Source: Desulfobulbaceae bacterium
GTDB lineage: Bacteria > Desulfobacterota > Desulfobulbia > Desulfobulbales > SURF-16
DNA: 61,705 bases
Direction of reading: 5' to 3'
NCBI GenBank assembly: GCA_003249165.1
Contig: QKJV01000332.1
Span: 1 to 61,705, forward strand
Below are positions 5,591 to 21,188 of this stretch, piece by piece. The position numbers and the translations under genes were made by a program. A model generated the notes under the pieces. That model did no database searches. It saw nothing but the letters and a program-made list of their open reading frames with translations, and had not been told where the DNA came from. Each line of letters begins with the position of its first letter. Position 1 is the first letter of the stretch.

Positions 5591-7009
5591 TTATCCACCC
5601 AATTCCCGTATTGCTTCATCTTCATTAGCTACATCTGCCGTTTGCGGCTTCGGTAAATAGTAATACTTACCTTCCTTAATGATAAGTTCCACATCTTCAG
5701 CATAGACATCCCTCGGCTGTTCCGCTTTTCCAATTATGTGGTTGGCTTGAGAGGCTATCTCATGGGCTATAGTTTTCTTGATAGCTTTATAATTGTGCTT
5801 TTCGTCTATCCAACCCAGCGGAATCGAAATCACAGCTTTAATACCTGTCTTTGCAACCCGTTCCTTACTCAAATCAATCCTTAACGCATCGACCTGCTTG
5901 CTGTGCCATTCGCTAAGAAGTGTTCGGGTTTGCACCGACATCTCTGTGTATTTATTGTAAAGAGCGTAGCTTTGTTCAGTTGATATAGTGCATTTCCCCA
6001 ATAAATACGTTAGCTTGCTGATTTCTTCAAGAACTGCTGCTAACACATCTTGAAACCCTACTAAGGTTTTTAACTCCTCAACTACGGACTCGTATTCTTT
6101 ATAGTCGGGGTTGGGGTTCTTTTTCATAATGTCAGTTATCGTAATATTCACTTGACCCAAGAGTTCGGTTGCGGTAGCCTTTATACCCTCTAAGGCAGAA
6201 AGTTTAAGTTTTCGCTGACTGTCGTCCTCCAATATCTCTGTGCTAAACTGAGAAATCTCGCCGACGAGGGTTATCACGGACAAGATTCGGCTCTTAAACT
6301 CTCTATCTTGAAAGTCACTGATTTTACTGATGCTCTTCGTCAATGCTTCTAACTTGGAATCGATTAAGGACATATAGTATTGACCGACAACCAGAGAGGC
6401 AACATTCATCACATTGGCCGCCACGTTTGCTACCTTGGCGGTTTTCGCAATGTTCGCTGGAACAACTTCACTCGCTTTCTGTGCCGTCACAGGGACAAGA
6501 TTTGCTTGACCTTTTATTCCTTTTGCACCGTGAAAAATAGCCCGCTTTGCACCTTCCATTGCTTGGGAATCAGTAAGTTTGGCACCGGCAGGAATAACAG
6601 CCCTATAAATATTTCCAGATTGCAGTGTTTGGTTAGCCTTTTGTACCGCGACGTTTGCAGCTTTTGCGGTTTGTTGCAATGCAGCGTTCGCGGCATTGGA
6701 TGTCAGTGTTCTGCTTGCTATTTCGGCAACAGCAGGAAGCGTCTGTGATATGCGGGCAACTACCGAGCGGTCTTTGATTTCGACCAGACTGTTTTCATCA
6801 ATCTGCGTTGTCGTAGGTAGGAGTTCAATTGGTATAGATAATTCTCCGACATGCTTTCCCGTAGCTGCCAACATATCGGTTGGCATAGCTCGCTCTGTGC
6901 TTTCAGCATTGCTAAGAACAGAGCTTGTCCTTTTTCGCAAGAAAACAACCACAACCGCGATTGCGGTTATGGCAATTACCACTAATGCTATCGGCAATAT
7001 GTATTCCAT
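5591..7009 (-). CDS. membrane-anchored protein of unknown function (472 aa)
   Basis: N-terminal TM helix ILPIALVVIAITAIAVVVVFL followed by a long helical/Ala-rich region. AGGAG RBS 9 nt upstream. Last gene of the defence block. Confidence 0.6.
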   Translation of the reverse strand: MEYILPIALVVIAITAIAVVVVFLRKRTSSVLSNAESTERAMPTDMLAATGKHVGELSIPIELLPTTTQIDENSLVEIKDRSVVARISQTLPAVAEIASRTLTSNAANAALQQTAKAANVAVQKANQTLQSGNIYRAVIPAGAKLTDSQAMEGAKRAIFHGAKGIKGQANLVPVTAQKASEVVPANIAKTAKVANVAANVMNVASLVVGQYYMSLIDSKLEALTKSISKISDFQDREFKSRILSVITLVGEISQFSTEILEDDSQRKLKLSALEGIKATATELLGQVNITITDIMKKNPNPDYKEYESVVEELKTLVGFQDVLAAVLEEISKLTYLLGKCTISTEQSYALYNKYTEMSVQTRTLLSEWHSKQVDALRIDLSKERVAKTGIKAVISIPLGWIDEKHNYKAIKKTIAHEIASQANHIIGKAEQPRDVYAEDVELIIKEGKYYYLPKPQTADVANEDEAIRELGG

Positions 7010-7027: not shown

Positions 7028-7378
7028 TTAGGTCTTAAATTTCGGCTTAATCAGGTCATAACTTCGACCAATCATTCTCTTCATCTCATCCTCCGGCACG
7101 TTGCCGCCGACCTTAACCGTGTTCCAATGTTCCTTGTTCATGTGGTAGGCGGGCGTGATGTCCTCAAATGCCTGCCGCATGATATCCGCTTCAAACGGGT
7201 CACATTTTAGGTTGACGCACAGCTTGCTGTGCCGCTCGTAAATCAACGCAAAGGACTTCTTATTTATCTTGTGCCGCATAACTGTCCACGCACCTGCGTC
7301 CGCTATATCGTCAAATGGGTAATCCTCGTAAGCAGCGGGGAATGTAAGGCAGAAATCGATGAGGTCTTGTCGGGTCAT
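7028..7378 (-). CDS. MmcQ/YjbR-family DNA-binding protein
   Basis: 116 aa. Family-typical FPAAYEDYPF, LKCDP and YHMNKEHWNTV segments. The start overlaps the stop of the upstream giant gene (ATGA). Confidence 0.8.
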   Translation of the reverse strand: MTRQDLIDFCLTFPAAYEDYPFDDIADAGAWTVMRHKINKKSFALIYERHSKLCVNLKCDPFEADIMRQAFEDITPAYHMNKEHWNTVKVGGNVPEDEMKRMIGRSYDLIKPKFKT

Positions 7379-10300
7379 ACACTTTCGTCCTCCACTCCAA
7401 TTTGACAGCGTACCGTGTAGTTGTCTCCCGTGATGCTAAATTTCGAATTGCAAAAACGATCTTCGCCATCAGCATAATTAAACAAATCTGAGAGTCGATA
7501 GATTTTACGTTCGTCCTCGCTCATTACAGCGGTCACCAAAACCACCTCATATTGTTGCGGGTGTTCTTCTGCAAAGTTCAATTCATTTTCTGTAATTACA
7601 AATGTAATTCCCGTCCCCGCAGTGGACTTAATTTCAACATAAATGGTTTCGCCGTTTGCGTTGGAATACTTAAGGTCGTAACCCAAACCGCCGATACCAT
7701 CAGGATTGATTCCTTCTTTTTTTGCGTTTTCCGAAACCCACATAACATTCTTGAAGGTTGATTTCATTTCTTCATAAACGAGTTTTTCAGCAAAGGCTCC
7801 CCAATCTGAAATATTTCGTTCTCGCTTCATTCCAGCCATGCGGCTTCCATTACGCACTGTGTGACCAGTGTTATTGGCGGAGTTGTTCGGCGGAGCAACA
7901 ACCTTAACCGATATTATAGGTGCGGAAGCTACGGAAGCTGTATTAAAAATCCTCGTTTCTTGTGCTTGTGCATTGTCAATGTCAGTCTTTCTGGCATTAT
8001 AAGCCTTGTTCAATTCTTCAAGATTACCAAAGTACAATAAACTCTCCAACTCCGAATCAACGAGCATATCATTTACAATTGACATATCCTTATCTTGCAC
8101 AAAGATTTCCTTATTCGCTTTCCAAGCCATGTTTGCGTCCTCTTCAGACTCTGACGAAATCACACTCCCAAACTGTTGTGAAAACTCAGCTTCCCAATCG
8201 TAATTAATGCTATTTGCAGGGTTAAAAGCGAATGTCTTGTATTTATCCAATTGCTTTAAGAATGTGCGTTGCACGCTAACAGGCTCGTTTTTAAGCATTG
8301 CAAACAATCCGTTTTTATATGAATTACTTTCATCATTTGCCCGTTTTTGTAAACACTCAAGATAAAAAGGAGTCAAGTCTACGATGACCTCGGATTTTTC
8401 ATTGAAATCATCAACATCAACTTTTAAGCCGCGTAAGACATTAATAAGTGACACTGCATTTGCCGTTGAGTTAAAATCAGCAAAATTTATAGAGTCAATG
8501 TCAGGTTCAATTGATGCAGTGCTGTCCTCACCAGCAATAAGAATGCAAGCCGAAAGAAACATTTCTTTTTCTGATTGTGTACGATTGAGGATATCACGAG
8601 ACCTTTCGAGAATGCTTAAATCATCATAATCGTGCAAGATTAAAGCGTTCCGATTGTGCGGTTCCTTCTCATATAAGGAGCGTACATATCCGAAAAGAGT
8701 GTCGTCCTGAATATCAATAGCCGTCATAAAAAGTTCAGCAATTGCGGAACAGAAGTCCACATTACTTTTTAGCTGTTTCAAACTTCCACCATTTCTTGGA
8801 GTCTGAACATAAACACAGTTTCTACCCCTGATATATGAACTGTCAGCTAATACAACCTCGCCTTTTCCGTAGTCGGCTTTTATGTAGGTACACAAACGAA
8901 CCTTCAACGCCTTCACGGTAGAGATTTCACTTTGCTTTGCAGTATCGACACGCGAGCAAAAAGCATAACAAATGAAATCGTTAAAATCTTGTTCAAAGGC
9001 AATGCTCTCTGGGTGAATGGCTGGCTCTCCGATTACAGACCCCTTGACCTTTAATGGCGACACGCCAAAATATCTCTTGATATTTTCTTGGCTTTGTCTG
9101 CTTGGTATGGCAATCAAGTTAAAGTCCTTTAGTATTTCACGACTTACCGTCTTTTCATTGAGATAGTGAACATCCTTTATTGCCACATATGTTTTTGAGG
9201 ATTTACAATACACATTTCCACTTTGTAAAAACTCGCGACATTTTGCGTTATTAGGATCGAAGTTCCTCAGACCACCTGACTTTAAAATAGATGTATAAAG
9301 AGCCTTGCTTATCTCGCCACCTTCATCAGCTTCAGGCAATGCCAATAACAATGAATATAGCGTTCCTGTGTCTAAGTCTGAATAGTCTGATGCAACGCCT
9401 ATCTGCTCCAAAATATCCTGGACGGCATTTGTTTCTGCGATTCTGCGGTTATGATTGTCGATAAAGAAGTCCAAATTAGGCGCGACAACTATGGGAGCAA
9501 ATAATGTGCCAATTTTACTCACAAACAAACATTGCTTCGGAGAATATCGGACACCCTCAACCTCTATCCAATTGCTTGTTGCAAAGGTAAAACGAAGGTG
9601 CGAAGCTAACTGCTCGCCGCTGATAGCTCTAAATTTTTGTTGATATAAATTATCGACGTAAGCACGGCTTGTGCTTGGCTCATAATCAGATAGCAATTGT
9701 CGGAGATTCTCATCATGTCGAATCCAATCAATTATGCTTTTGGTATTTGCTTTCTCAAGAATTTCATCAAGACGTTCAACCGTAACAATTTCTACGTATC
9801 TGAGAGTTGCACTGCGAAATTCCTGTTCGTTATGATACCGGTTGTCCTCTGCGAGCAGCGGGTATTTTTTTATACTTGTATATATGAGTTCTCTATAAGC
9901 CTCTGGTATTGAACGAATTGTTATTTTAGTTTTTCGCGGGAACTGGGCAACGCCTAACGCCGACAAAAATTCTCTATACTGCTGTTTTGTCAATTCGGTT
10001 AAGGCTATTCGCTTGGGTATTGAAACAAAAAGGCCATCGTTGCTATCAAACAAATTTTCAGTTACTTCATTATCGAACTCTTTCCCGAAATATAATTCGT
10101 TTGCGTTTTTCGCTTCGCCTTTACGATTTATCAATGGAATCGTCGTTAATGCAGACATTTCGTTTTTCAAAACGTTGGCTTTCCATAGCTTCCATAACCA
10201 CTCGACAGTGTCTTCATAGCACCCTCTGGTTTTCTTACTCGTTTGGTGTGCACGGCTTCTTAAGCGAGATATGACCGCGTTAATAATGTTTCCAAGGTTA

Positions 10301-11964
10301 TATTCACGAACATTGAATTTCGAGAGTTCAATGGCAAGGCCTCTCAATGTGTTTTCTTTCCCCTGCAAGTCGCGTAAAGCACTCACGAGGTCTTTATTCA
10401 TGAAAACGATTTTCGTAAAATCAGGTGGAGAAGAAAAGTCAACAGTTTCTGCTGGTAAGAATACTTGTTGACCATTGGTTACAGCATTGCCGCTACTATC
10501 CAATACAAAATGAGGCTTATTCTCTGAGGAAATCTCGTTACGGTACTCATTGATAAACGTAAGCCATAAAGCTGCCCTCTCTCGGATTTGAAGAGTCGGT
10601 AAAATAGAATTGATTCCCGTCGTTATCTCACTGTATTGATACCGCATACCTACTTTTCTATGCTTTGCAATGGATTTAATCATCGTTCTTATCGCAGTAT
10701 TATCCGTTGGAGGCATTAGTGACGAGAATGCATCTCCACTTAAAAAATCCGCAATATTGCTATCATAGAATCGCGGTTTTTCAGCAAATGTAATATATTT
10801 GTTGCCCACAGTAGGAAAAACATTGCTCGCAGCAACTGCTTCAAGATAATAGTCTTTGATAACGAAGTCGTCCCAACTCAAGTCAATTGGGAAATCCCCT
10901 ACCGTTGATAGCAAGGCGAGCGGGGCGTAATTAATGCTTTCAGTGGTTGTTATCAATGCAAGATCAACAAGCGTATCACAAATAACTTTGAGTATATGCT
11001 TATTAGCCTCTGTTTCATCGAGGTGGTTTCTGTCTGCATTTAAGTCAAACGTTGCATGAGCGAGAGCATGGACAGGAAATTGTACCTTTGTCTTGAAATA
11101 GCTGTATAAAACGTCCGGAACAACAGACATATCCTCTTTGTAGGCGACCATCACGCCATATTTTTGTTTCTTAAAACTGCCCTCTCGGGATAGGATAGAC
11201 CAATTGTCGGTTTCAACGGTTTCGCCATTTCTGTTTGTCATAATATGTATATCGATAATACCATTTTCACGTTTGGAAGGGTTTTTTTTATAAACAAAAA
11301 CATTCCCACTATATTCTATCGTCAGTTTCTCCAGCTTCTCTAAAAACAGAAGGGTTTTTGAATTGATTTGTTGTAGCTGACCAATAACTTTTCCAACAAC
11401 ATCAGATTTCAATTCGACCTCGATTACTGTGTCATATTCTTTATTATGCAAGGGCGAAATTAATCGAGGAGCAACAAGTGTCGCAATCTGCACATCATCA
11501 TATGTTTTACAAAACTCAGCAACATCATCATTTTCAAGCAATTCAACCAGCGTTTCACGAGCATAGAATTCGGAAAATTCAACGGACAAATCACCACTAT
11601 AAATGCGGACACGGTCTGCCCAGTTTAGTATGGAACGAAACCCAGTACCTTTATTGCCGATATATTCATTTTTGTTGTGCTTCGGGCTGAGATTTGAATA
11701 CATCAATGAAATAAAACCATCAAAAGTGAATACGCTTCCATTATTGCTTATTATCAGTATATTATCTTTCAAAACAATAGAAACAGAGCGGTCATCTGTA
11801 CCGCCGAGTTCGTCGACTGCGTTTTGAAGCAGTTCTAATAGTTCCCGACCATGATAACCGCGAATTTCAGCCGTTTCTTTTCTGTAATCCGATAATATAA
11901 GGTTAGGGTCAAGAATATAACCTTTTTTCCTAATCTCTATTTGACGTGCCACTTTATCGTTCAT
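7375..11964 (-). CDS. giant GHKL (sacsin/Hsp90-like) ATPase with C-terminal DUF3883 restriction-endonuclease-like domain
   Basis: 1529 aa. Bergerat N-box E44-LLQ-N48-AV-D51, ISNNGSVF, GNKGTGFRS. C-terminus GLGYDLKYSNANGETIYVEIKST..FVITENELNFAEEHPQQYEVVLV (D..E-x-K style core). Confidence 0.75.
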   Translation of the reverse strand: MNDKVARQIEIRKKGYILDPNLILSDYRKETAEIRGYHGRELLELLQNAVDELGGTDDRSVSIVLKDNILIISNNGSVFTFDGFISLMYSNLSPKHNKNEYIGNKGTGFRSILNWADRVRIYSGDLSVEFSEFYARETLVELLENDDVAEFCKTYDDVQIATLVAPRLISPLHNKEYDTVIEVELKSDVVGKVIGQLQQINSKTLLFLEKLEKLTIEYSGNVFVYKKNPSKRENGIIDIHIMTNRNGETVETDNWSILSREGSFKKQKYGVMVAYKEDMSVVPDVLYSYFKTKVQFPVHALAHATFDLNADRNHLDETEANKHILKVICDTLVDLALITTTESINYAPLALLSTVGDFPIDLSWDDFVIKDYYLEAVAASNVFPTVGNKYITFAEKPRFYDSNIADFLSGDAFSSLMPPTDNTAIRTMIKSIAKHRKVGMRYQYSEITTGINSILPTLQIRERAALWLTFINEYRNEISSENKPHFVLDSSGNAVTNGQQVFLPAETVDFSSPPDFTKIVFMNKDLVSALRDLQGKENTLRGLAIELSKFNVREYNLGNIINAVISRLRSRAHQTSKKTRGCYEDTVEWLWKLWKANVLKNEMSALTTIPLINRKGEAKNANELYFGKEFDNEVTENLFDSNDGLFVSIPKRIALTELTKQQYREFLSALGVAQFPRKTKITIRSIPEAYRELIYTSIKKYPLLAEDNRYHNEQEFRSATLRYVEIVTVERLDEILEKANTKSIIDWIRHDENLRQLLSDYEPSTSRAYVDNLYQQKFRAISGEQLASHLRFTFATSNWIEVEGVRYSPKQCLFVSKIGTLFAPIVVAPNLDFFIDNHNRRIAETNAVQDILEQIGVASDYSDLDTGTLYSLLLALPEADEGGEISKALYTSILKSGGLRNFDPNNAKCREFLQSGNVYCKSSKTYVAIKDVHYLNEKTVSREILKDFNLIAIPSRQSQENIKRYFGVSPLKVKGSVIGEPAIHPESIAFEQDFNDFICYAFCSRVDTAKQSEISTVKALKVRLCTYIKADYGKGEVVLADSSYIRGRNCVYVQTPRNGGSLKQLKSNVDFCSAIAELFMTAIDIQDDTLFGYVRSLYEKEPHNRNALILHDYDDLSILERSRDILNRTQSEKEMFLSACILIAGEDSTASIEPDIDSINFADFNSTANAVSLINVLRGLKVDVDDFNEKSEVIVDLTPFYLECLQKRANDESNSYKNGLFAMLKNEPVSVQRTFLKQLDKYKTFAFNPANSINYDWEAEFSQQFGSVISSESEEDANMAWKANKEIFVQDKDMSIVNDMLVDSELESLLYFGNLEELNKAYNARKTDIDNAQAQETRIFNTASVASAPIISVKVVAPPNNSANNTGHTVRNGSRMAGMKRERNISDWGAFAEKLVYEEMKSTFKNVMWVSENAKKEGINPDGIGGLGYDLKYSNANGETIYVEIKSTAGTGITFVITENELNFAEEHPQQYEVVLVTAVMSEDERKIYRLSDLFNYADGEDRFCNSKFSITGDNYTVRCQIGVEDESV

Positions 11965-12131: not shown

Positions 12132-15125
12132 TTAAATTTTCGGCTGTTCGGAAGTGCCCCCCGGCTTATATGTCGAGTTAAAAACCATATCAAGCAGCCA
12201 CTTCTTAAAAGACTGATTGTTGCTGTTTCTCATATCATCTTGAAATGCGGTATACAATTCCATTCCGCTCGACATGGTTTTCAAAATCGCTTCAAAGACG
12301 GCGCGGTCGCTTTCATCACGGGCATTCTGGGCATCCGAATAACGCATAGCATTCTTATATGCCTCATCCTGTTTTACGATATCCGGCAAGTCTGCGATTT
12401 GCTTCCTGATTTTATCTTCGTCCGTCCAGTCGCAGTTACCCCATATATCATGAAATGTAGCGATGATATTGGACAGGGTATCCATCTCTGGCACTGGAAT
12501 GCCAACGTCGGTCTCTACAGGGATAGCATCGATTTCTGCATCCTCGTCTGCAAGACGAATAGCTACGGTTTCTTGTGCCACAACACGGTAGCTTTCAAGG
12601 TCCACATCCTCTATGATTCTTCTTATATCATTATCGTCAGATTCGGGACTTGGCAACTTTGAGACAAGTAGGTTTAAAAAGATAGACAGCTTCTCCCAAT
12701 CTTGCGAACCATACGGCAGTATAGCAGAGAGAAAGTTATAGGTGCGCACAAAGGTCTTGGCACTACTTTTGAAGGCAATTTGGTCTTCAAGATCGAGTGC
12801 CCTATAATTTTCCACACAAGCATCTATAATTGGGTCAAGTTTATCTCGCTCCGCATTGTTCAGATACAGACCTACGAAGGTATCAATCTGTTGCTGTGTA
12901 TAGACTTGCATCGGTTCCATTGTTTCAATAAGATCGTTCAGCTTGTTGGCGTCGGTTTCTCCAGAGAGGACAGTGGTCTTATAATAACGTTCAAACGCAT
13001 TCTGAATATCAGTAGGGTCATTTGCAAAATCCAGAACAAAAACATCATTCTTGCCGCTACAGCACCTGTTAAGGCGAGAAAGGGTCTGAACAGCCTTGAT
13101 GTCCGCCAACCCCTTGTCCACATACATTGTGTGAAGCAGCGGTTCATCATAGCCCGTCTGGAATTTATCTGCGACCACAAGAATGCGATAGGGATCGCGC
13201 TTAAATTTTTTCTCAATCTGTGCACTTGGAAACCCATTGATTTTTGCCTCGTTCAGGGTTTCTCCGTTGTAGTTTGAATCTCCAGAGAATGCAATTACCG
13301 CCTTGTACTGACTTCTTCTCTCATTCAGCGCTTTGGTAATTGCCATATAATATTCGATAGCTCGGTGAATGCTGCTGGTTACAACCATAGCACGTCCTTG
13401 CCCGTTAATCTTGTTCTTGACCGAGTTGTGGAAATGCTCCACGATTATACCCGCTTTTTCTTTGATGGCATATTCCTGATTTTCAACATATGTCCGTAAA
13501 ATGCTTTGCGCCCGCTTTTTATCAAAGAGCGGGTCATCTTCAGCCGTTTTCACAATGTGATAAAAACTATGATATGGTGTATAATATTTCAGAACATCAA
13601 GAATGAACTTTTCCTCAATGGCCTGTTTCATCGTATAAATATAGTGAGGCTCAGATTTCTTTGTGCCGTCCTCGTTTAATATAGAATTACCGTTTCCGTC
13701 TACAACGGTCTTGCCAAACATTTCTAAGGTTTTGTTTTTTGGCGTTGCAGTAAAAGCAAAGTAGCTGGCGTTCCTCGCCATCCGCTTTCCTTCAATTAGG
13801 CTGTTGATTTTATCCTCCAGTTCGTCATTATCATTGTAAACATTACCGGAAAGGACGATGTTCATCTTAGCAGATAGACTTCCGTTCTGGCTGGAATGCG
13901 CCTCATCAATGATGATGGCAAATTTCTTATTCTTGTGAACATCGGTAATATCACCCAAAATAAACTGAAATTTATGTACGATCGTAATAATTACGCGCTT
14001 GCCTTCGTCTAAAAGCCGTCGCAGCTCCGAAGAGTCTTTTGCCCAGCCGACTGTGGCGGATACCTGCATAAACTGATGAATAGTGTTCTTTATCTGCTTA
14101 TCAAGGTTGATACGATCGGTAACGACAATGACGGTGTCAAACACTTGCCCGTCTGCGTTCTTCAGCGTAACGAGCTGGTGAGCAAGCCATGCGATAGAAT
14201 TGGATTTGCCGGAACCAGCGCTGTGCTGAATGAGATAACGATGCCCCGCCCCGTCTCTTGATGCATCGAATAGCAGCGATTTTACGACATTCAGCTGATG
14301 ATAACGCGGGAATATTTGCTTATAGTACTTTTTCCCAGTATCCTCGTCCTTTTCTTCTACAACCTGAGCATAATTTTCAAGAATATTCGACAGTTCTGCT
14401 TTTGTCAGAATATCCTTCCAGAGGTAATCCGTTTTTATGCCTTCTGGATTTGGAGGATTTCCGGCGCCGTCATTATAACCCTTGTTAAATGGTAGGAAGA
14501 AGGATCTGTCACCCTTCAGTTCTGTACACATACGGATTTCGTTATCATCTACAGCGAAATGCACCAGGCAACGTTTGAAGCTGAAAATCAGCTCCGAGGG
14601 CAGCCTGTCTTTTTTATATTGAGCTTCCGCATCTGATGCGTTTTGCTTTGTGAACTGATTTTTCAACTCAAAGGTCATAATGGGAAGACCGTTGATGAAC
14701 AGAGCCATATCCAGGGCAAGGCGACCATACTCTTTGGAATACTGTAGCTGCCGTGTGACACTAAAAATGTTCTTGTTATACAAGGCTTCTGCCTCACGGT
14801 TTCCAGCAGAAGGCAGAACCATGTACAATTCCAAAGTACGATGCTTGTATTTAAAACCTTTACGTAAAATCTCGACAACGCCGGAATCGGACAGCTTTTT
14901 GCTGAGACGGTCAAGAAACTTCTTCTTTTCCGCATCCGATTCCAGAATGCGCAGTTCGTCTATATATTCCTTCTGTGTATCATTTAAAAATCGGAACAGT
15001 CGCGTTTCGTCAATAGCATACTCCTGATTGTAATCAGTGCTTGTCCCTTGCTCGTAATTATTTTGGGTTACGAGCCAATTGACAATAAGGGTTTCAAAGC
15101 CATTTTCCCTGGTATTGGTGGGCAT
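12132..15125 (-). CDS. hsdR: type I restriction endonuclease subunit R
   Basis: 997 aa. Walker A HSAGSGKSNS, DEAH box IIDEAHSSQ. The start overlaps the hsdS stop by 1 nt (TAATG). Confidence 0.9.
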   Translation of the reverse strand: MPTNTRENGFETLIVNWLVTQNNYEQGTSTDYNQEYAIDETRLFRFLNDTQKEYIDELRILESDAEKKKFLDRLSKKLSDSGVVEILRKGFKYKHRTLELYMVLPSAGNREAEALYNKNIFSVTRQLQYSKEYGRLALDMALFINGLPIMTFELKNQFTKQNASDAEAQYKKDRLPSELIFSFKRCLVHFAVDDNEIRMCTELKGDRSFFLPFNKGYNDGAGNPPNPEGIKTDYLWKDILTKAELSNILENYAQVVEEKDEDTGKKYYKQIFPRYHQLNVVKSLLFDASRDGAGHRYLIQHSAGSGKSNSIAWLAHQLVTLKNADGQVFDTVIVVTDRINLDKQIKNTIHQFMQVSATVGWAKDSSELRRLLDEGKRVIITIVHKFQFILGDITDVHKNKKFAIIIDEAHSSQNGSLSAKMNIVLSGNVYNDNDELEDKINSLIEGKRMARNASYFAFTATPKNKTLEMFGKTVVDGNGNSILNEDGTKKSEPHYIYTMKQAIEEKFILDVLKYYTPYHSFYHIVKTAEDDPLFDKKRAQSILRTYVENQEYAIKEKAGIIVEHFHNSVKNKINGQGRAMVVTSSIHRAIEYYMAITKALNERRSQYKAVIAFSGDSNYNGETLNEAKINGFPSAQIEKKFKRDPYRILVVADKFQTGYDEPLLHTMYVDKGLADIKAVQTLSRLNRCCSGKNDVFVLDFANDPTDIQNAFERYYKTTVLSGETDANKLNDLIETMEPMQVYTQQQIDTFVGLYLNNAERDKLDPIIDACVENYRALDLEDQIAFKSSAKTFVRTYNFLSAILPYGSQDWEKLSIFLNLLVSKLPSPESDDNDIRRIIEDVDLESYRVVAQETVAIRLADEDAEIDAIPVETDVGIPVPEMDTLSNIIATFHDIWGNCDWTDEDKIRKQIADLPDIVKQDEAYKNAMRYSDAQNARDESDRAVFEAILKTMSSGMELYTAFQDDMRNSNNQSFKKWLLDMVFNSTYKPGGTSEQPKI

Positions 15126-16510
15126 TATTCATCAACCTCCTCATCTGAAGTTTCATCGATTTCCCCCTCGGATTCTTCATCCGGCTCTTCTTCGTCTATG
15201 ATATCATCAGCTTCCGGCTCATATTGCGGAACTTCGACATTTCGGACATCCACTTTGCCGGTCACAACGTCTGAGATGGTTCTGGTACGGAGTTCTTGAA
15301 CACAAGATATTTCTTTATAAAGAGCATCAATCAATGCATCAATTTCTGCAGTTTTTGAGGGAATTGACTTAAGAATTTCCTTCTGTTCTTCCTCAGGAGG
15401 AACAAAAAACGGAATATGCTTCATTTTTTGCATCGACAAATCCCACTGTCCAATGCGTATTCCGTCCGAAAATTGAGCGAAGAAATTTACATAAACGCGG
15501 CTACGCATTGCAAAATGAAAGAATTCCTTGTTAGGAAAACGTAAATTAAAAACAAAATATGCAGGACTAACAATGCCATCATATTCTGAAACCCCATATG
15601 AGCCTTGCCACGCCTTCATTTTATTTATTACAAACTGTCCCTTGCGAACCAGCTTATATCCACTCAAATCATCAGGGATATAATTGTGATTAGTATCATA
15701 ATTGTCGACATCACGTTGTATGACTCCTTGCTCTCTGGTTACAGATAAAAGTAGCATTTCTGGATGATTTTTTTCACTGACTGAAAATAGAAACTGCCTT
15801 AATGAGCAGATATTCCAGTGAGCTGGAATCTGTGGCAACCATTCTATACCGGTGTCTTTCATTGGTACGTCATCATGAAGACCACGAGTTACAGCTCGAT
15901 TTACAATAGCTTTTTTGAGTTCAAGTAATCGTCTGATTTCACGCTTTTTCTCCTTGATGAAATGCACCATCTCCGCGATTTTCCAATCAAGGAAACGGAC
16001 AATCTGGTCTTGTTCTGGACGTGGCGGGGTGGCTAAGACTGTTCTCTTTAAGTAAGGAACAAATATCTGCCTTTGTATTGAACCAACACCCTTTGAAGCT
16101 AAAACGAACTGGTCAACCACGTCTTTATCACGAACCATATAATTTAAAAAATCAGAATTGATTTCAGTACGAGGCTTTAGAATATAGTATGCAGGGCTTA
16201 TGATTCCACGATATTTAGAAACGCCAACAGATCCACGCCAAGCCTGTTGGTTGTTTAATACGAAATCACCGACTTCTACCAACTGATACTTTGACATATC
16301 CTCGCTTGGCTTATGAACCTGTTTTTGGGAAGTAGAAGCGTAACTAACGACCCCTTTATCCAAAAATACCGACAAGAGTTCTTCATCAGAATTATTTTGA
16401 ACGGATGTAAACTTAAACATCCAAGATAAACGATTTTCTTGCCAATGCGCTGGGATGCTTCGTTCAAATGGGGACATAGATGTTTTATAGTCACAATATG
16501 GACGTAACAT
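15125..16510 (-). CDS. hsdS: type I R-M specificity subunit S
   Basis: 461 aa. Two-half architecture with duplicated blocks (GIISPAYYILKP / GIVSPAYFVFNL). Sits between hsdM and hsdR. Acidic C-terminal tail. Confidence 0.85.
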   Translation of the reverse strand: MLRPYCDYKTSMSPFERSIPAHWQENRLSWMFKFTSVQNNSDEELLSVFLDKGVVSYASTSQKQVHKPSEDMSKYQLVEVGDFVLNNQQAWRGSVGVSKYRGIISPAYYILKPRTEINSDFLNYMVRDKDVVDQFVLASKGVGSIQRQIFVPYLKRTVLATPPRPEQDQIVRFLDWKIAEMVHFIKEKKREIRRLLELKKAIVNRAVTRGLHDDVPMKDTGIEWLPQIPAHWNICSLRQFLFSVSEKNHPEMLLLSVTREQGVIQRDVDNYDTNHNYIPDDLSGYKLVRKGQFVINKMKAWQGSYGVSEYDGIVSPAYFVFNLRFPNKEFFHFAMRSRVYVNFFAQFSDGIRIGQWDLSMQKMKHIPFFVPPEEEQKEILKSIPSKTAEIDALIDALYKEISCVQELRTRTISDVVTGKVDVRNVEVPQYEPEADDIIDEEEPDEESEGEIDETSDEEVDE

Positions 16511-18574
16511 TCAGTTGACACCTCCTATAATAGAGGCAAGCAAGCCATCCGTACTTGCTTCAATCGCTTGAATGTCAGCAATAATATCAGTAGGTTCACG
16601 CAGTTCAACGGGCTTATAAAAATACTTCGTGAAGCTGAGTTCATATCCAAGAACGACCGATTTCTCATCCACCCATGCATCCGGCACATAGGGCTTGACT
16701 TCGGCTTCAAAGAAAGCGTTGATGCCTCCAGCATAGGTAAGTGGTATTTGTTCGGTATCACCCAGGTTTTTGTCAATCTCTGGCTTACCATCCTTATCCA
16801 GAACAGGTTCGGCATTCTCGTCAACTTTAGTGAAATAGGTACGGATGGTTTTCAGTCGTTTTGACGTAAGACGAACGTTTTCATTATCTGCCAAAGTGGA
16901 CAGCTTTTTTATGAATACATTAAAATCCATAAGCGGTGTGCTTCCGAGCTTTTCTTGTGCTTTAAGCATCAATGCGTTGAGTTCATCATCCTTTTCTTTT
17001 TTCAGTAATTCGAGGTTGGCAACGCTAATTTCTACAGCTAAACGTAGCGGGCGTGCAATACCCACCGACCAATAGCCAAACTCCTCATTATCAAAAACCT
17101 TACTGAACCGCTCGTCAGCATCTGTAAACGCGAGGTAAAGATCAATAATCTGTTTTCTGATGTCCAAGTCCACTTCACAGTTTTTGCTTCCGAGGTTTTT
17201 GCGCAGCGAGGATTTCATTAAGGTTGCGTCAATAAGTTGTACTTTGCCTTTACGCTTTATATCCTTTTTATTAGTTACAACCCACAGGAAAGTGCCGATG
17301 CCAGTGTTATAAAACATATTCTCCGGCAGTGCCACAATTGTTTCAAGCATATCTTGTTCAATAATGTATCTTCTGAGATTGCTCGGGCCACTCCCGGCTT
17401 TACCTGTAAACAGTGACGAACCGTTATGTACTTCCACAATACGGCTTCCCAAATCGGTGGAAGTTTTCATTTTGTTGATATTATTTGCAAGAAACAGCAT
17501 CTGTGGGTCGCCAATATCGGGGATAAGAGAATATTCTGGGTCTCCAGCATATTCAATGATAAATCGGGGATCTGTAATATCTTCCTTTTTAATATTGCCC
17601 CATGCTTTTAACTCAGATTTCCATGATGTGCCGAAGGGAGGATTAGAAAGCATAAAGTCAAATTCCTCACGTGCAAATTTGTCATCGGAAATCGTAGAGC
17701 CAAACCGAATATTGTTTGCCTGCGCACCCTCACCTTTTACAAGCATATCGGCGCGGGCAATAGCATAAGTTTCATCAGCATTTTCTTGTCCGAATAGTTT
17801 GATAGATACATTCTTTTGCCGTCTTGCTGCCAACAGCTTTATATGATCCTCACCCACAGTCAGCATGCCGCCTGTTCCACAGGCTCCATCGTAAATACGA
17901 TAGGTTGTGCTTTGAATCTTGTCCTGAACGGGAATGAACGCAAGGTCTGCCATCAGTTCAACAATATCTCTCGGTGTAAAATGACGTCCGGCGTCGGTTA
18001 CGTTCGTTTCCTCATTGAACATACGGATAACTTCTTCAAAGAGAGACCCCATTGTATGATTATCCAGTTCCTCAATACGAACACTACCGTCTTCATTAAA
18101 GACAGGTTTATTGCTGAAGTTATATCGCGGATCAACAAATTTTTCTATGAGTAGACCCAGACGATCTTGTTCGGAGAGCCTGTCAATCTCATTTCTGATT
18201 TTAAACTTGTTAAGGATTTCCTGCACATTCTGAGAAAATCCGTCTAAATAGTTATTAAAATCTCGCTTGAGTTGCTGTTGATTGGTTCTTGATTTTAAAT
18301 CGGTCAAAGTGTAGTCACATTTATTAACAAACGCCTGACCTGCAATAGCACATAAAGCCGGGTCCAAATCGACCGAAAGACCTTTTTTCTCATATTCTTT
18401 TTTCGCTTTAATAACATCATCGTGCTTCTCTTCTAAAACCGCATCAAAACGACGGATAACAAAAAACGGAAGAATAATTTTACGGTAGTCGCCAACGTCG
18501 TAAACGTCAACAAGACAATCGTTGGCGATCCCCCAAATAAATGCCTTTAAAGAATTATAAGTAGCCTGGTTCAT
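16511..18574 (-). CDS. hsdM: type I R-M N6-adenine DNA methyltransferase subunit M
   Basis: 687 aa. Motif I DGACGTGGML, motif IV NPPFG. The stop abuts the hsdS start (TGAATG). Confidence 0.9.
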   Translation of the reverse strand: MNQATYNSLKAFIWGIANDCLVDVYDVGDYRKIILPFFVIRRFDAVLEEKHDDVIKAKKEYEKKGLSVDLDPALCAIAGQAFVNKCDYTLTDLKSRTNQQQLKRDFNNYLDGFSQNVQEILNKFKIRNEIDRLSEQDRLGLLIEKFVDPRYNFSNKPVFNEDGSVRIEELDNHTMGSLFEEVIRMFNEETNVTDAGRHFTPRDIVELMADLAFIPVQDKIQSTTYRIYDGACGTGGMLTVGEDHIKLLAARRQKNVSIKLFGQENADETYAIARADMLVKGEGAQANNIRFGSTISDDKFAREEFDFMLSNPPFGTSWKSELKAWGNIKKEDITDPRFIIEYAGDPEYSLIPDIGDPQMLFLANNINKMKTSTDLGSRIVEVHNGSSLFTGKAGSGPSNLRRYIIEQDMLETIVALPENMFYNTGIGTFLWVVTNKKDIKRKGKVQLIDATLMKSSLRKNLGSKNCEVDLDIRKQIIDLYLAFTDADERFSKVFDNEEFGYWSVGIARPLRLAVEISVANLELLKKEKDDELNALMLKAQEKLGSTPLMDFNVFIKKLSTLADNENVRLTSKRLKTIRTYFTKVDENAEPVLDKDGKPEIDKNLGDTEQIPLTYAGGINAFFEAEVKPYVPDAWVDEKSVVLGYELSFTKYFYKPVELREPTDIIADIQAIEASTDGLLASIIGGVN

Positions 18575-18617: not shown

Positions 18618-18836
18618 TTATTCGCTTTTATCATTCATCATTTCCATGATGTCTCCAACATCACACTCCAAGACTTTGCATATTTTCGCAAGAATGTCGG
18701 TGCTAACGTTTTCGTCTTTCCCTAACTTGGCAAGAGTCGTCGTACTAATGCCAGTTGCCATCCGCAGGTCTTTCTTTTTCATATTTTTATCGATTAACAG
18801 CTTCCAAAGTTTTTTATAGCTCACTGCCATGCTCAT
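18618..18836 (-). CDS. XRE-family helix-turn-helix protein (72 aa)
   Basis: KKKDLRMATGISTTTLAKLGKDENVSTDILAKICKVLECDVGDI is a Cro/C1-type HTH. It lies 43 nt upstream of hsdM on the same strand. Confidence 0.8.
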   Translation of the reverse strand: MSMAVSYKKLWKLLIDKNMKKKDLRMATGISTTTLAKLGKDENVSTDILAKICKVLECDVGDIMEMMNDKSE

Positions 18837-19060: not shown

Positions 19061-19109
19061 AGTGTTAGAATTAAGCGAACATGCTTGTTCAATACAAGGA
19101 GGTACCAAT

Positions 19110-19493
19110 ATGGACGCAAAATTTGGTGAATATGTAAAAGCCAAAAGGTTAGAGAAGGACGTCAACCTCAGAAAATTGGCGGAAATACTCGGCATCGTTC
19201 CCGCCTACATGAGTGACATTGAGAAAGGAAGACGCTATCCACCGGACAGGGAGAAAATTTATAAAATTGCCGAAGCCTTGTCTCTTAACGATGATGAAAC
19301 GAATGAGATGTTTGACCTTGCGGCACTTGCAAAAGAGAACTCTATCTCTCCTGATTTGCCAGAGTATATTATGGGAACTGAAAAAGCACGTGTTGCTTTG
19401 AGAATGGCTCGTGATATAAATGCAGATGACAAAGATTGGCTGAAAATAATCGAGATGTTGGAAGCAAAGGAAAAAGGAGACGCAAATCATTGA
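19110..19493 (+). CDS. XRE/cI-like phage repressor
   Basis: Start chosen at ATG 19110 behind AAGGAGG. HTH LRKLAEILGIVPAYMSDIEKGRRYP. Confidence 0.85.
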   Translation: MDAKFGEYVKAKRLEKDVNLRKLAEILGIVPAYMSDIEKGRRYPPDREKIYKIAEALSLNDDETNEMFDLAALAKENSISPDLPEYIMGTEKARVALRMARDINADDKDWLKIIEMLEAKEKGDANH

Positions 19494-20212
19494 TATATTA
19501 CCAGTATTCGCCTTCTCAACTTGAAGCAAAAGCCATCGAGCTGACACAATGTTTTGACAATGAACGACTTATCTATCCAAAGTGCATTGATGTTTATGAT
19601 GTAGTTGATTTTATCGGTTGTACACCAGACTGGGTATACCTTACCCCGAACCAGTCTTATCTCGGCTTGACTGCGTATAACGACGGTTATTGGTGGGCAT
19701 GGCCTAAACCATACTATGAAGAAGGCATGTTCCCTACTAAGATTGCTGTTTCTTCGGGAACTATACTGATTGACCGAACCATAAGCGAAGGCGATAATCG
19801 TGGGATTGAAAACTTCACGGTTATACACGAATGCTTTCATCAAATACTACATCCTCGATGTTTTCGGAACAAATCGGCAAACTATCAGCATTTCTGCCAG
19901 AAGAAAGACTTCCGTGCCGAATCTGAAAACCGAAATAATATAACAGCAATTGAGCGCATTGAGGCTCAGGCAAATTACTGTACTGCTGCGTTTTTGATGC
20001 CTAAGTCAGCCTTAGAAGCGGTCTTTATGGAGAAAATGGAGCTGTCGTCTTTGCCTTCCTTGCCTATAAAAATCAACTGGAAAATCGATAGCATCATCGG
20101 AGAAATGGCAACTTTATTCAGCGTAAACTACTCACCCATGAAATACAGATTGCAGACATTAAATCTCCTTTCACGCGAAGGATCTTCTCTCGAAGAATAT
20201 CTTTGTAGTTAG
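19436..20212 (+). CDS. ImmA/IrrE-family metallopeptidase (anti-repressor protease)
   Basis: HEXXH motif IHECFHQILH. Paired with the XRE repressor. The true start may be TTG 19490 behind AGGAG, which would overlap the repressor stop. Confidence 0.8.
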   Translation: MAENNRDVGSKGKRRRKSLIYYQYSPSQLEAKAIELTQCFDNERLIYPKCIDVYDVVDFIGCTPDWVYLTPNQSYLGLTAYNDGYWWAWPKPYYEEGMFPTKIAVSSGTILIDRTISEGDNRGIENFTVIHECFHQILHPRCFRNKSANYQHFCQKKDFRAESENRNNITAIERIEAQANYCTAAFLMPKSALEAVFMEKMELSSLPSLPIKINWKIDSIIGEMATLFSVNYSPMKYRLQTLNLLSREGSSLEEYLCS

Positions 20213-20215
20213 AAC

Positions 20216-20256
20216 CGGGAGTGTGCGTAAAACAGTGCATTCCCGTTATTTTTTAA
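20216..20256 (+). terminator. rho-independent terminator candidate
   Basis: Stem cgggagtg / cattcccg followed by ttatttttt. Confidence 0.4.
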
Positions 20257-20554: not shown

Positions 20555-20593
20555 GGCGCAAACAACTGAATAAGGAATCCGCAGAGCTGCACG

Positions 20594-21184: not shown

Positions 21185-21188
21185 TCTT

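What the first reader, a model, noticed from the sequence alone, without database searches (positions are those of the whole stretch)
7375..11964. 1529-aa GHKL ATPase fused to a DUF3883 nuclease-like domain, appended to a type I R-M operon
The N-terminus has a clean Bergerat fold signature: E44xxxN48xxD51, NNGSVF and GNKGTGFRS, which is sacsin/Hsp90/MORC-like. The last ~120 aa (7464-7810) read GLGYDLKYSNANGETIYVEIKST..FVITENELNFAEEH..YEVVLV, a PD-(D/E)xK-style DUF3883 core. About 1000 aa in between have no motif I can recognise. The gene follows hsdR after 167 nt on the same strand and is translationally coupled (ATGA) to a YjbR-like gene. GHKL/MORC-type ATPases are known from comparative genomics to associate with R-M loci. 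As far as I know, no characterised named defence system has this ATPase-nuclease-YjbR-membrane protein composition. It is a strong candidate for an uncharacterised defence or DNA-surveillance module.
Basis: partly seen in the sequence, partly recalled or inferred. Interest (0 to 1): 0.75.

Follow-up and report, generated by a model that had tools for sequence, protein, structure and literature searches.

The report
Tiamat (TmtA) defence gene on prophage
The 1529-residue ATPase-nuclease is real, but it belongs to a defence family that already has a name, Tiamat (TmtA); here it sits with a type I restriction system in the accessory arm of a prophage, and its mechanism is still unknown.

Summary
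ORF 7375-11964(-) encodes 1529 aa with an N-terminal sacsin/Hsp90-type GHKL domain and a C-terminal DUF3883/NOV_C PD-(D/E)xK nuclease. It lies 167 nt after hsdR and overlaps a YjbR gene by ATGA.

The claim that no named system matches is wrong. The protein matches the PADLOC TmtA model end to end (E=0, 1125 bits). TmtA is the only gene of the Tiamat system.

Across 78 homologous loci there is no conserved partner:
- YjbR is absent elsewhere and is frameshifted in a 96%-identical sister locus.
- The 472-aa membrane protein follows TmtA only in the closest clade. It belongs to a separate, widespread family that sits behind varied defence genes, most often a Macro-domain protein.
- Type I R-M genes are the only recurrent neighbours, in about 14% of loci. 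The sister locus carries a different R-M module.

AlphaFold models (pLDDT 87) show an Hsp90-like N-terminal part and a well-folded middle region of about 660 aa with no structural relative. A disordered linker then leads to an Hjc-like nuclease.

The block forms the leftward accessory arm of a Heliusvirales-like prophage.

Verdict: a new member of a known kind, interest about 0.3. An ATP-gated nuclease is the most likely mechanism, but this is inferred, not shown.

The parts
7375..11964 (-). tmtA: 1529-aa Tiamat protein (whole ORF, stop codon included)
   Evidence: ORF. PADLOC TmtA PDLC03964: E=0, 1125 bits, aa 2-1521 against model positions 10-1535 of 1538. 389 homologues, mostly full length at 1500-1630 aa.
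11035..11859 (-). N-terminal GHKL (Bergerat-fold) ATPase-like domain, aa ~36-310, sacsin/Hsp90 type. Motif I is E44/N48/D51, motif II is N74-N-G76, motif III is G103-x-K-G-x-G108, motif IV is T179.
   Evidence: NCBIfam NF047352 at aa 40-122, E 7e-17. Pfam SACS matches 17 of 30 relatives. The motif residues are invariant in 94 sequences. Foldseek to Hsp90: E 3e-8, probability 1.0.
7885..11034 (-). Middle region, aa ~311-1360. The first part aligns with the middle and C-terminal parts of Hsp90. From aa ~700 it is a well-folded alpha/beta region followed by an all-helical region with no detectable relative.
   Evidence: AF2 pLDDT is mostly 80-95. The Foldseek alignments to Hsp90 span about 700 columns. 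There is no PDB or BFVD match to the remainder, no Pfam match and no internal repeat.
7819..7884 (-). Predicted disordered linker, aa 1361-1382, ahead of the nuclease domain
   Evidence: This is the only internal segment with pLDDT below 50 (model residues 962-983). The alignments are poorly conserved and gap-rich here.
7378..7812 (-). C-terminal NOV_C/DUF3883 PD-(D/E)xK nuclease domain, aa ~1385-1529. Catalytic candidates are E1393, D1430, E1444 and K1446.
   Evidence: Pfam PF13020, E 3e-13, found in 30 of 30 relatives. D1430, E1444 and K1446 are invariant. Structural matches to the Hjc resolvase (TM 0.55 on the target) and to the SPARDA nuclease domain, with weak E-values, and to viral NOV_C, VRR-NUC and RecU proteins.
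7028..7378 (-). yjbR/mmcQ-like gene (116 aa). Its start overlaps the tmtA stop (ATGA). It is a local passenger, not part of Tiamat.
   Evidence: PF04237, E 7e-27. The overlap is visible. It is absent from the other 79 TmtA loci. In L007 it carries a 212-nt deletion between GTTATG repeats.
5591..7009 (-). 472-aa membrane-anchored protein ('TM472'). It belongs to an independent family found in defence islands and mobile elements. It is not a conserved Tiamat component.
   Evidence: No Pfam, PADLOC, NCBIfam or PHROG match. 343 homologues, some misnamed 'topoisomerase IV'. It follows TmtA only in the window, L007 and L001. Elsewhere it follows Macro-domain proteins, GmrSD, type III Res, integrases and others.
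12132..18574 (-). Complete type I R-M operon upstream on the same strand: hsdM 16511-18574, hsdS 15125-16510, hsdR 12132-15125
   Evidence: Pfam, PADLOC and NCBIfam matches.
18618..18836 (-). 72-aa Xre-type helix-turn-helix gene, 43 nt upstream of hsdM on the same strand. It faces a divergent HTH + ImmA/M78 pair at 19062-20212(+).
   Evidence: ORF and translation. Peptidase_M78 match. The HTH assignment rests on reading the sequence; it was not scanned against a profile.
19062..59145 (+). Body of a Heliusvirales-like prophage: regulation, DUF2800, SSB, PolA, VapE, SNF2, methyltransferase, terminase, portal, capsid, tape measure and two large serine recombinases. The R-M/Tiamat block is its leftward accessory arm.
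   Evidence: Megablast matches to Oscillospiraceae and other Heliusvirales phages. The complete phage PV036457.1 has the same layout, and its leftward arm carries R-M and other defence genes.

Best explanation
The gene encodes TmtA, the only protein of the known Tiamat anti-phage system.

Architecture:
- an N-terminal sacsin/Hsp90-type GHKL nucleotide-binding domain with an Hsp90-like continuation;
- a family-specific, well-folded scaffold of about 660 aa;
- a short disordered tether;
- a C-terminal DUF3883/NOV_C PD-(D/E)xK nuclease.

Most likely mechanism (inferred, not shown). TmtA is an ATP-gated nuclease. As in other GHKL proteins, nucleotide binding would drive N-terminal dimerisation and a conformational cycle. 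The large middle region would read an infection cue, either a DNA structure or a phage protein. The cycle would then release or position the tethered nuclease to cut DNA. The outcome would be destruction of the invader or arrest of the infected cell.

TmtA works on its own. The type I R-M operon in front of it, the YjbR gene coupled to it and the membrane protein behind it are independent neighbours. All of them were gathered in the defence-cargo arm of a Heliusvirales-like prophage, probably transcribed leftward from the regulatory region.

Shown here: family identity, domain folds, invariant catalytic residues, the lack of any conserved partner, and the defence-island and prophage context. 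Inferred: ATP dependence, DNA as substrate, the trigger, and the order of events.
For: Identity:
- PADLOC TmtA PDLC03964 matches full length at E=0, and eight further TmtA models also match.
- 389 homologues share the same length and architecture.

Folds:
- NCBIfam sacsin ATP-binding-like domain and Pfam SACS and NOV_C.
- AF2 models with pLDDT 87.
- Foldseek to Hsp90 at E 3e-8, probability 1.0, over about 700 columns.
- Nuclease domain resembles Hjc, the SPARDA nuclease domain and restriction enzymes and viral NOV_C, VRR-NUC and RecU proteins.

Catalytic potential:
- E44/N48/D51, G103-G108, T179 and D1430/E1444/K1446 are invariant across sequences that share only 27-85% identity.

Stand-alone system:
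- Clustering all neighbours in 78 loci gives no conserved partner.
- 126 immediate neighbours fall into 133 Pfam families.
- YjbR is broken in L007, and the R-M module is swapped in L007.

Defence context:
- Gabija, type III Res and GmrSD in L001.
- Gabija and Hachiman around the 85%-identical P0003.
- Mrr and HNH next to P0004.
- SIR2-Piwi, DUF499, a DrmA-like helicase and AddA-like proteins.

Analogy: VcSduA, a GHKL ATPase fused to a PD-(D/E)xK nuclease, needs both activities for defence (PMC12137116).

Literature: Tiamat is described as a single-gene PD-(D/E)xK system of unknown mechanism.
Against: - No experiment on this protein, and no mechanistic or structural paper on Tiamat was found in the library or in the PDB.
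- GHKL motif II is NNG (N74 invariant) instead of the canonical DxGxG, so the residue that normally contacts adenine is changed. ATP binding is therefore not certain. From memory, the sacsin Hsp90-like domain has the same feature and its nucleotide binding is disputed.
- The structural matches to nucleases have weak E-values (0.2-1), because the domain is about 10% of a 1130-residue query.
- Nothing here identifies the trigger or the substrate.
- Only monomers were modelled, so dimerisation is assumed from the superfamily.
Confidence: 0.6

Rival explanations
1. This would be a new multi-gene defence module: the ATPase-nuclease, YjbR (a DNA-binding adaptor) and the membrane protein (an effector) work together and are appended functionally to the type I R-M operon.
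For: All the genes are on the same strand with tight spacing. There is an ATGA overlap between tmtA and yjbR and an 18-nt gap before TM472. TM472 also directly follows TmtA in L001 and L007.
Against: YjbR is next to TmtA in no other of 80 loci and is frameshifted in the 96%-identical L007. TM472 is missing from relatives at 85%, 84%, 84%, 68% and 67% identity: P0003, P0004, L009, L013 and L002. The TM472 family mostly follows other genes. PADLOC recognises TmtA as a known single-gene system.
Confidence: 0.06
2. TmtA is a second line that guards the R-M system, as the anticodon nuclease PrrC does. It would stay silent while the Hsd complex is intact and fire when a phage anti-restriction protein disables that complex.
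For: Type I hsd genes are the only recurrent neighbours: HsdR in 11 and HsdM in 11 of 78 loci. In six Bacteroidota loci (L044, L049, L050, L055, L058, L065) tmtA lies 4-13 nt upstream of hsdR; in five of them hsdM and hsdS lie directly upstream, so tmtA sits between hsdS and hsdR, the position PrrC occupies in the prr locus (PrrC position from memory). In L049 the upstream genes are on the other strand and no hsdM or hsdS was detected. GHKL-nuclease fusions embedded in R-M operons have been proposed as analogues of PrrC and RloC (PMC3710099).
Against: About 86% of loci have no type I R-M within 10 kb. The sister prophage L007 keeps TmtA at 96% identity but has a type II R-M plus SNF2/NOV_C instead of hsdMSR. 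Tiamat is catalogued as a functional single-gene system. Defence genes cluster together in any case.
Confidence: 0.1
3. TmtA does not cut DNA as its main action. Like MORC-type GHKL proteins it would clamp and compact or silence invading DNA, and the DUF3883 domain would serve as a DNA-recognition module.
For: GHKL clamps such as MORC entrap and compact DNA (abstracts listed). The scaffold is large and nothing defines its role.
Against: The complete D-ExK catalytic triad, plus E1393, is invariant in sequences as little as 27% identical. The ATPase is Hsp90/sacsin-like rather than MORC-like.
Confidence: 0.1
4. It is not an immune gene but a housekeeping chaperone or DNA-repair factor related to sacsin and NO VEIN that happens to lie in a variable region.
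For: The closest structural relatives are the chaperone Hsp90 and the sacsin domain. Its eukaryotic counterparts are not known immune proteins.
Against: Distribution is patchy, and the gene sits on prophages, plasmids and islands among known defence systems. The family was defined as a defence system by others, and the PADLOC model matches.
Confidence: 0.03

Closest known systems
Tiamat (TmtA), single-gene anti-phage system (Millman et al. 2022; PADLOC and DefenseFinder models)
   Same: Full-length match to a TmtA profile (E=0). Same architecture of an N-terminal ATPase-like domain and a C-terminal DUF3883 nuclease. Stand-alone gene in defence islands.
   Different: Only 27-30% identical to the Bacillaceae branch of the family. 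From memory, the tested Tiamat came from a Bacillus, so I believe this clade has not been tested. Here it is carried in a prophage accessory arm behind a type I R-M operon.
VcSduA / type I-D Shedu and paraMORC3 (GHKL ATPase + DUF4263 PD-(D/E)xK nuclease; PMC12137116)
   Same: An N-terminal GHKL domain fused to a C-terminal PD-(D/E)xK nuclease in one polypeptide. Both activities are needed for defence in VcSduA. It is a plausible model for ATP-gated nuclease control.
   Different: The GHKL clade differs (MORC/MutL-like versus sacsin/Hsp90-like). The nuclease family differs (DUF4263 versus DUF3883). VcSduA is roughly a third of the size, judging from its nuclease-site residue K557, and lacks the ~1000-aa middle region. 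No Shedu profile matches here.
Prokaryotic MORC and paraMORC GHKL ATPases in R-M operons (Iyer, Abhiman and Aravind 2008, PMC2292703)
   Same: GHKL ATPases genomically linked to R-M systems and to restriction-fold nucleases.
   Different: Those have the MORC-type GHKL plus an S5 domain and partner with SF2 helicases. TmtA has no conserved helicase partner, and its best structural matches are Hsp90, not MutL or MORC.
Sacsin (animals) and NO VEIN (plants)
   Same: The sacsin-type N-terminal ATP-binding-like domain (NF047352, PF25794) and the NOV_C domain (PF13020) both carry eukaryotic names. Sacsin also ends in a nuclease-superfamily domain, HEPN (PMC3710099). Tiamat profiles hit plant genomes (PMC12409356).
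   Different: The eukaryotic proteins are much larger, have other added domains (Ubl and DnaJ in sacsin) and are not known to act in immunity. No direct alignment with them was made here.
PrrC and RloC (nucleases embedded in type I R-M loci)
   Same: In five Bacteroidota loci tmtA lies between hsdS and hsdR, the same position as prrC.
   Different: PrrC is an ABC-ATPase plus HEPN RNase that depends on the Hsd complex. TmtA is usually found without R-M.
Hma-type SNF2 helicase-nuclease and other DUF3883 proteins
   Same: The DUF3883/NOV_C nuclease serves as the effector domain in a defence gene (PMC11232893, listed). An SNF2 gene followed by a NOV_C gene sits directly upstream of tmtA in L007.
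   Different: The motor is different (SNF2 versus GHKL).

Membership tests
Tiamat (TmtA) | Significant full-length match to a curated TmtA profile | tested here: met
   PADLOC PDLC03964: E=0, 1125 bits, aa 2-1521 against model positions 10-1535 of 1538. Eight other TmtA models also match.
Tiamat (TmtA) | N-terminal ATPase-like domain and C-terminal DUF3883 nuclease in one protein of about 1500 aa | tested here: met
   NF047352 at aa 40-122. PF13020 at aa 1393-1488. Same in 30 of 30 relatives.
Tiamat (TmtA) | Single-gene system with no obligatory partner gene | tested here: met
   No conserved neighbour in 78 loci. YjbR is broken and the R-M module replaced in the sister locus L007.
Tiamat (TmtA) | Protects against phage when expressed | not testable with these tools
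   Needs a phage challenge experiment.
GHKL (Bergerat-fold) ATPase superfamily | Motif I (ExxxNxxD), motif III (GxxGxG) and the motif IV Thr | tested here: met
   E44, N48, D51, G103, G106, G108 and T179 are invariant in 94 sequences.
GHKL (Bergerat-fold) ATPase superfamily | Motif II DxGxG, with the adenine-contacting Asp | tested here: not met
   The motif reads S-N74-N-G76-x-x-F79, and N74 is invariant. This is the sacsin-type variant, so nucleotide binding is uncertain.
GHKL (Bergerat-fold) ATPase superfamily | Bergerat fold in three dimensions | tested here: met
   AF2 model with pLDDT 87. Foldseek matches to Hsp90, GRP94 and TRAP1 N-terminal domains and to full-length proteins, best E 3e-8, probability 1.0.
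MORC / paraMORC clade | MORC-type GHKL (HATPase_c_3) with an S5 domain, nearest to MutL and MORC | tested here: not met
   HATPase_c_3 matches only 1 of 30 relatives, at E 0.0098. There is no MORC or MutL chain among the 50 best structural matches listed, all of which are Hsp90-family proteins.
PD-(D/E)xK nuclease superfamily (NOV_C/DUF3883) | D ... (D/E)xK catalytic motif on the restriction-endonuclease core fold | tested here: met
   D1430, E1444 and K1446 are invariant. PF13020 at E 3e-13. Structural matches to Hjc, the SPARDA nuclease, SwaI and AvaII: TM up to 0.55 on the target, with weak E-values.
Shedu (SduA, DUF4263) | DUF4263 nuclease domain | tested here: not met
   No SduA or DUF4263 match in PADLOC or Pfam.
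Type I restriction-modification (the upstream operon) | hsdM, hsdS and hsdR all present and intact | tested here: met
   N6_Mtase + HsdM_N, Methylase_S, and HSDR_N + SWI2_SNF2 + T1R_D3, plus the PADLOC MTase_I, Specificity_I and REase_I models.

The most novel reading that the evidence does not exclude
TmtA may act as a guard of restriction-modification, triggered when a phage disables the neighbouring Hsd complex. This would be the PrrC principle, but with a sacsin/Hsp90-like sensor and a DNase as the output. It would explain why tmtA is repeatedly inserted between hsdS and hsdR or directly behind hsdR, and why prophages carry the two together.
Probability: 0.1. Interest if true: 0.65.

Novelty: new member of a known kind. 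Interest (0 to 1): 0.3.

Why it matters
Tiamat is one of the defence systems catalogued since 2022 for which I found no mechanism and no solved structure. This locus adds the following.

1. A well-supported domain map: a sacsin/Hsp90-like N-terminal part, a confidently folded region of about 660 aa with no structural relative, and a tethered Hjc-like nuclease.
2. A list of invariant residues for mutagenesis, including the unusual NNG motif II.
3. Evidence that Tiamat travels in the accessory arm of Heliusvirales-like prophages, a phage order common in the human gut (PMC11283538), and next to tandem serine recombinases.
4. A recurrent link to type I R-M that suggests a testable guard hypothesis.

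The same two domains give their names to the eukaryotic proteins sacsin and NO VEIN, whose biochemistry is poorly understood. A bacterial model could therefore inform them.

Separately, the 472-aa membrane protein family looks like an unrecognised gene of defence islands and mobile elements, most often paired with a Macro-domain protein.

Tried and rejected
- **Sequence search of the PDB.** Searching with the protein and with a 30-sequence profile gave nothing, apart from a spurious 45-residue LEKTI match.
- **Internal repeats in the middle region.** hhalign of six segments of the family alignment against each other gave probabilities of 2% or less, so there is no detectable duplication.
- **Pfam on 30 diverse relatives.** This was meant to annotate the middle region; only NOV_C and SACS were found.
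- **Foldseek of aa 400-1529 against the PDB and BFVD.** Only the C-terminal nuclease domain matched. TPR-like hits had probabilities of 0.05 or less and were rejected.
- **A mechanistic Tiamat paper.** Five literature searches found only catalogues and surveys. The 2022 preprint text does not describe Tiamat in words.
- **YjbR as a partner.** Rejected.
- **TM472 as a Tiamat component.** Rejected as a general feature.
- **TmtA in sequenced phage genomes.** No match in 50,697 records. Prophage carriage is therefore seen only in genome and metagenome contigs and in 7 IMG/VR contigs.
- **Promoter and terminator scan of 4.4-19.3 kb.** Counts were no higher than in shuffled sequence, so nothing was concluded about transcription units.
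- **Rfam on the repeat region 4600-5650.** No match.


Full report
**1.

The minus-strand ORF 7375..11964 is an uninterrupted 1529-codon frame with a GGAGAA ribosome-binding site 8 nt before the ATG. It begins 167 nt after hsdR (12132..15125). Its stop overlaps the start of a 116-aa YjbR gene (GTATGACC, ATGA overlap). That gene is followed after 18 nt by a 472-aa protein with an N-terminal transmembrane helix. hsdM, hsdS and hsdR are all recognised by Pfam, PADLOC and NCBIfam.

In an alignment of 94 homologues sharing 26-85% identity, these residues are invariant: E44, N48, D51, N74, G76, G103, K105, G106, G108 and T179. In the C-terminal core, D1430, E1444 and K1446 are invariant too.

**2. 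What it is.**

PADLOC's TmtA model PDLC03964 matches the protein from residue 2 to 1521, covering model positions 10-1535 of 1538 (E=0, 1125 bits). Eight other TmtA models also match. TmtA is the sole gene of the Tiamat system. The literature at hand lists Tiamat among the Millman et al. 2022 systems, as a single-gene PD-(D/E)xK system of unknown mechanism.

Other profile matches:
- Pfam gives NOV_C/DUF3883 at aa 1393-1488 and a sub-threshold sacsin-domain match.
- NCBIfam gives the sacsin N-terminal ATP-binding-like domain at aa 40-122, above its cut-off.
- Across 30 diverse relatives only NOV_C (30 of 30) and SACS (17 of 30) are found. The MORC-type HATPase_c_3 matches one sequence, at E 0.01.

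**3. Structure.**

Two overlapping AlphaFold2 models built on a 94-sequence alignment are confident. Residues 1-1200 have mean pLDDT 87.1 and residues 400-1529 have 87.6. The only disordered internal stretch is aa 1361-1382.

- The N-terminal model matches full-length Hsp90, GRP94, TRAP1 and HtpG (best E 3e-8, probability 1.0, about 700 aligned columns). The ATPase-like part is therefore Hsp90/sacsin-like and continues into an Hsp90-like middle part. No MORC or MutL chain is among the 50 best matches listed.
- The C-terminal model matches only through its last ~140 residues. The matches are Hjc Holliday-junction resolvases (TM 0.55 on the target), the nuclease domain of SPARDA, and restriction enzymes. 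E-values are weak because the domain is a small part of the query.
- In the viral library it matches NOV_C, VRR-NUC and RecU proteins.
- Residues ~700-1360 are well folded (alpha/beta, then all helical) but have no relative in the PDB, BFVD or Pfam, and no internal repeat.
- No PDB chain is related by sequence.

One caveat: GHKL motif II reads NNG, with N74 invariant, instead of DxGxG. ATP binding is therefore plausible but not assured.

**4. Partners: there are none.**

I fetched 80 genome loci encoding homologues and searched them with the window's neighbouring proteins. I also clustered every neighbouring ORF.

- **YjbR.** It occurs next to TmtA nowhere else. In L007, whose TmtA is 96% identical, yjbR carries a 212-nt deletion between GTTATG repeats. 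The deletion shifts the frame, while tmtA and the downstream gene stay intact.
- **The 472-aa protein.** It follows TmtA only in the window, in L007 (96%) and in L001 ([Clostridium] fimetarium; TmtA 82%, this protein 46%). It is absent next to relatives at 85%, 84%, 84%, 68% and 67% identity.
- **Type I hsd genes.** These are the only recurrent neighbours: HsdR-like in 11, HsdM-like in 11 and HsdS-like in 8 of 78 loci.
  - In six Bacteroidota loci tmtA lies 4-13 nt upstream of hsdR; in five of them (L044, L050, L055, L058, L065) hsdM and hsdS lie directly upstream, so tmtA sits between hsdS and hsdR. In L049 no hsdM or hsdS was detected.
  - In the window and L020 it directly follows hsdR (91-167 nt).
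- **Immediate neighbours overall.** 126 proteins fall into 133 Pfam families. The most frequent are R-M domains, followed by C5 methylases and integrases.
- **Other neighbours.**
  - Gabija, a type III Res protein and GmrSD.
  - Gabija and Hachiman.
  - Mrr and HNH.
  - A SIR2-Piwi fusion, a DUF499 ATPase, an AddA-like helicase-nuclease and a DEAD+MZB helicase of the DISARM type.

But the gene is a stand-alone system.

**5. Local context: a prophage defence arm.**

From 19 kb onwards the window is a prophage. It encodes:
- an HTH + ImmA/M78 pair, DUF2800, an Enc34-type SSB, PolA, an antirepressor, VapE and SNF2;
- a methyltransferase, terminase, portal, capsid, tape measure and two large serine recombinases at 55.6-59.1 kb.

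It matches Oscillospiraceae and other 'Ca. Heliusvirales' phages of 55-65 kb at 72-78% identity.

The complete phage PV036457.1 has the same plan. It has a block of about 24 kb of leftward genes, a divergent regulatory region, rightward replication, structural and lysis genes, and recombinases at the right end. Its leftward block encodes a type I R-M, a type III R-M, a HamA-like protein and an LmuB-like protein.

The window's leftward block is the equivalent arm. It runs: 72-aa HTH gene 18618-18836, hsdM, hsdS, hsdR, tmtA, yjbR, TM472.

L007 belongs to the same prophage lineage (o271 90%, DUF2800 84%). There the arm carries a DpnII-type enzyme, an SNF2 helicase and a separate NOV_C protein in place of hsdMSR, followed by the same tmtA and TM472. 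The arm is therefore modular, and TmtA is not tied to the Hsd system.

In five further loci (six locus ids; L093 is the same contig as L010) a tandem pair of homologous serine recombinases lies 0.5-3.5 kb upstream of tmtA: L010/L093, L022, L096, L097 and L098.

TmtA is absent from 50,697 deposited phage genomes. It is present on 18 plasmids, once at full length, and on 7 IMG/VR contigs.

**6. Mechanism (inferred).**

By analogy with GHKL proteins in general, and with VcSduA in particular, I consider an ATP-gated nuclease the most likely mechanism. VcSduA is a GHKL-PD-(D/E)xK fusion in which both activities are required for defence (PMC12137116).

The proposed sequence is:
1. A nucleotide-driven cycle in the N-terminal Hsp90/sacsin-like module.
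2. Cue recognition by the large family-specific scaffold.
3. Release or positioning of the flexibly tethered DUF3883 nuclease to cut DNA.

What is shown is the pair of folds and the invariance of their catalytic residues. ATP dependence, dimerisation, the substrate, the trigger, and whether the outcome is direct immunity or abortive infection are all inferred.

The main alternative worth testing is a PrrC-like guard of R-M. It is suggested by the repeated insertion of tmtA into hsd operons and by earlier proposals for GHKL-nuclease fusions in R-M loci (PMC3710099; PMC2292703). The many R-M-free loci and the module swap in L007 argue against it as a general rule.

**7. The 472-aa membrane protein.**

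This family has at least 343 members in Bacillota, some misnamed 'topoisomerase IV', and no Pfam, PADLOC, NCBIfam or PHROG match. Of 57 loci with room upstream, 43 have a co-directional gene within 150 nt. Those upstream genes are:
- a ~340-aa Macro-domain protein in 11 loci, usually 3-8 nt away;
- tyrosine integrases (4), GNAT acetyltransferases (3), DUF4268 proteins (3), GmrSD (2), type III Res (2), an HsdR C-terminus (1), and TmtA.

It is an independent gene of islands and mobile elements, possibly one half of an unrecognised Macro + membrane-protein pair. It is not a Tiamat subunit.

**8. Verdict.**

The finding is a correct description of a real and intact gene, but the gene belongs to a known, named family. 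It is a new member of a known kind. Residual interest comes from four things: Tiamat's unknown mechanism, the domain map and residue list obtained here, carriage on a prophage arm together with type I R-M, and the side lead on the membrane protein. Interest 0.3.

Noticed in passing
window 19062-59145: A prophage of about 40 kb related to 'Ca. Heliusvirales' gut phages. It has HTH+ImmA, DUF2800, an Enc34-type SSB, PolA, VapE, SNF2, a large methyltransferase, terminase, portal, capsid, tape measure and two tandem large serine recombinases (55596-57158 and 57562-59145). The R-M/Tiamat block is its leftward accessory arm. A related complete phage (PV036457.1) carries type I and type III R-M plus HamA-like and LmuB-like genes in the same arm.
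   Followed up: partly
window 5591-7009 (-); loci L081-L088 and L100-L179: The 472-aa membrane protein belongs to a widespread Bacillota family with no profile match, some members misnamed 'topoisomerase IV'. It usually sits a few nucleotides behind a variable upstream gene. Most often this is a ~340-aa Macro-domain protein (11 of 57 loci); it can also be GmrSD, type III Res, an integrase or TmtA. This may be an unrecognised two-gene module of defence islands.
   Followed up: partly
window 5150-5563 and 61210-61520: Two non-coding regions of about 300 nt, 71% identical and in direct orientation, bracket the defence arm plus the prophage (56 kb apart). Each has three tandem ~30-nt units (ATCTAA...), a conserved CCCTTGACATCAATAC box and copies of GTTCGTGGAAAYATRTC (6 matches in the window against 0.5 expected). 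G+C rises from 0.35 to about 0.42 at the left copy. There is no Rfam match. Their function is unknown; they could be element ends or a regulatory region.
   Followed up: partly
L007 14587-14744 compared with window 7028-7378: In the 96%-identical sister locus, yjbR has a 212-nt deletion between GTTATG direct repeats, which makes it a pseudogene. The flanking tmtA and membrane-protein genes are intact.
   Followed up: yes
L044, L049, L050, L055, L058, L065 (Flavobacteriia and other Bacteroidota): In all six loci tmtA lies 4-13 nt upstream of hsdR. In five of them (L044, L050, L055, L058, L065) hsdM and hsdS lie directly upstream, so tmtA is inserted between hsdS and hsdR, the position the anticodon nuclease gene prrC occupies in its locus. 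In L049 the upstream genes are on the opposite strand and no hsdM or hsdS was detected.
   Followed up: partly
L010/L093, L022, L096, L097, L098: A tandem pair of large serine recombinases, 40-58% identical to those of the window's prophage, lies 0.5-3.5 kb upstream of tmtA on the same strand. In L022 they follow a DUF2800-SSB-PolA module. Tiamat therefore seems to be recurrent cargo of this kind of element.
   Followed up: partly
window 18618-18836 (-): A 72-aa Xre-type helix-turn-helix gene lies 43 nt upstream of hsdM on the same strand and faces the divergent HTH+ImmA pair. It could be an R-M controller (C) protein or the phage's own switch protein. It was not scanned against profiles.
   Followed up: no
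window 1083-4593 (-): Three paralogous ~315-357-aa proteins with 4Fe-4S cluster motifs (1083-2030, 2561-3634, 3646-4593) and a 151-aa regulator-like gene I did not scan against profiles (2057-2512) lie in a low-G+C (0.34-0.36) stretch to the left of the defence arm. This is presumably host chromosome.
   Followed up: no
window 21188-21229, 21256-21297, 25475-25516, 55285-55326: A 42-nt repeat family (GGTACTCAAA...GTCCTGTGGATGG.GAGGG) occurs four times on the same strand in the prophage. It may be a regulatory or terminator-like element.
   Followed up: no
window 11737-11745 (aa 74-76 of TmtA): GHKL motif II is NNG, with N74 invariant in 94 homologues, instead of the canonical DxGxG. The adenine-contacting Asp is replaced throughout the family.
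   Followed up: partly
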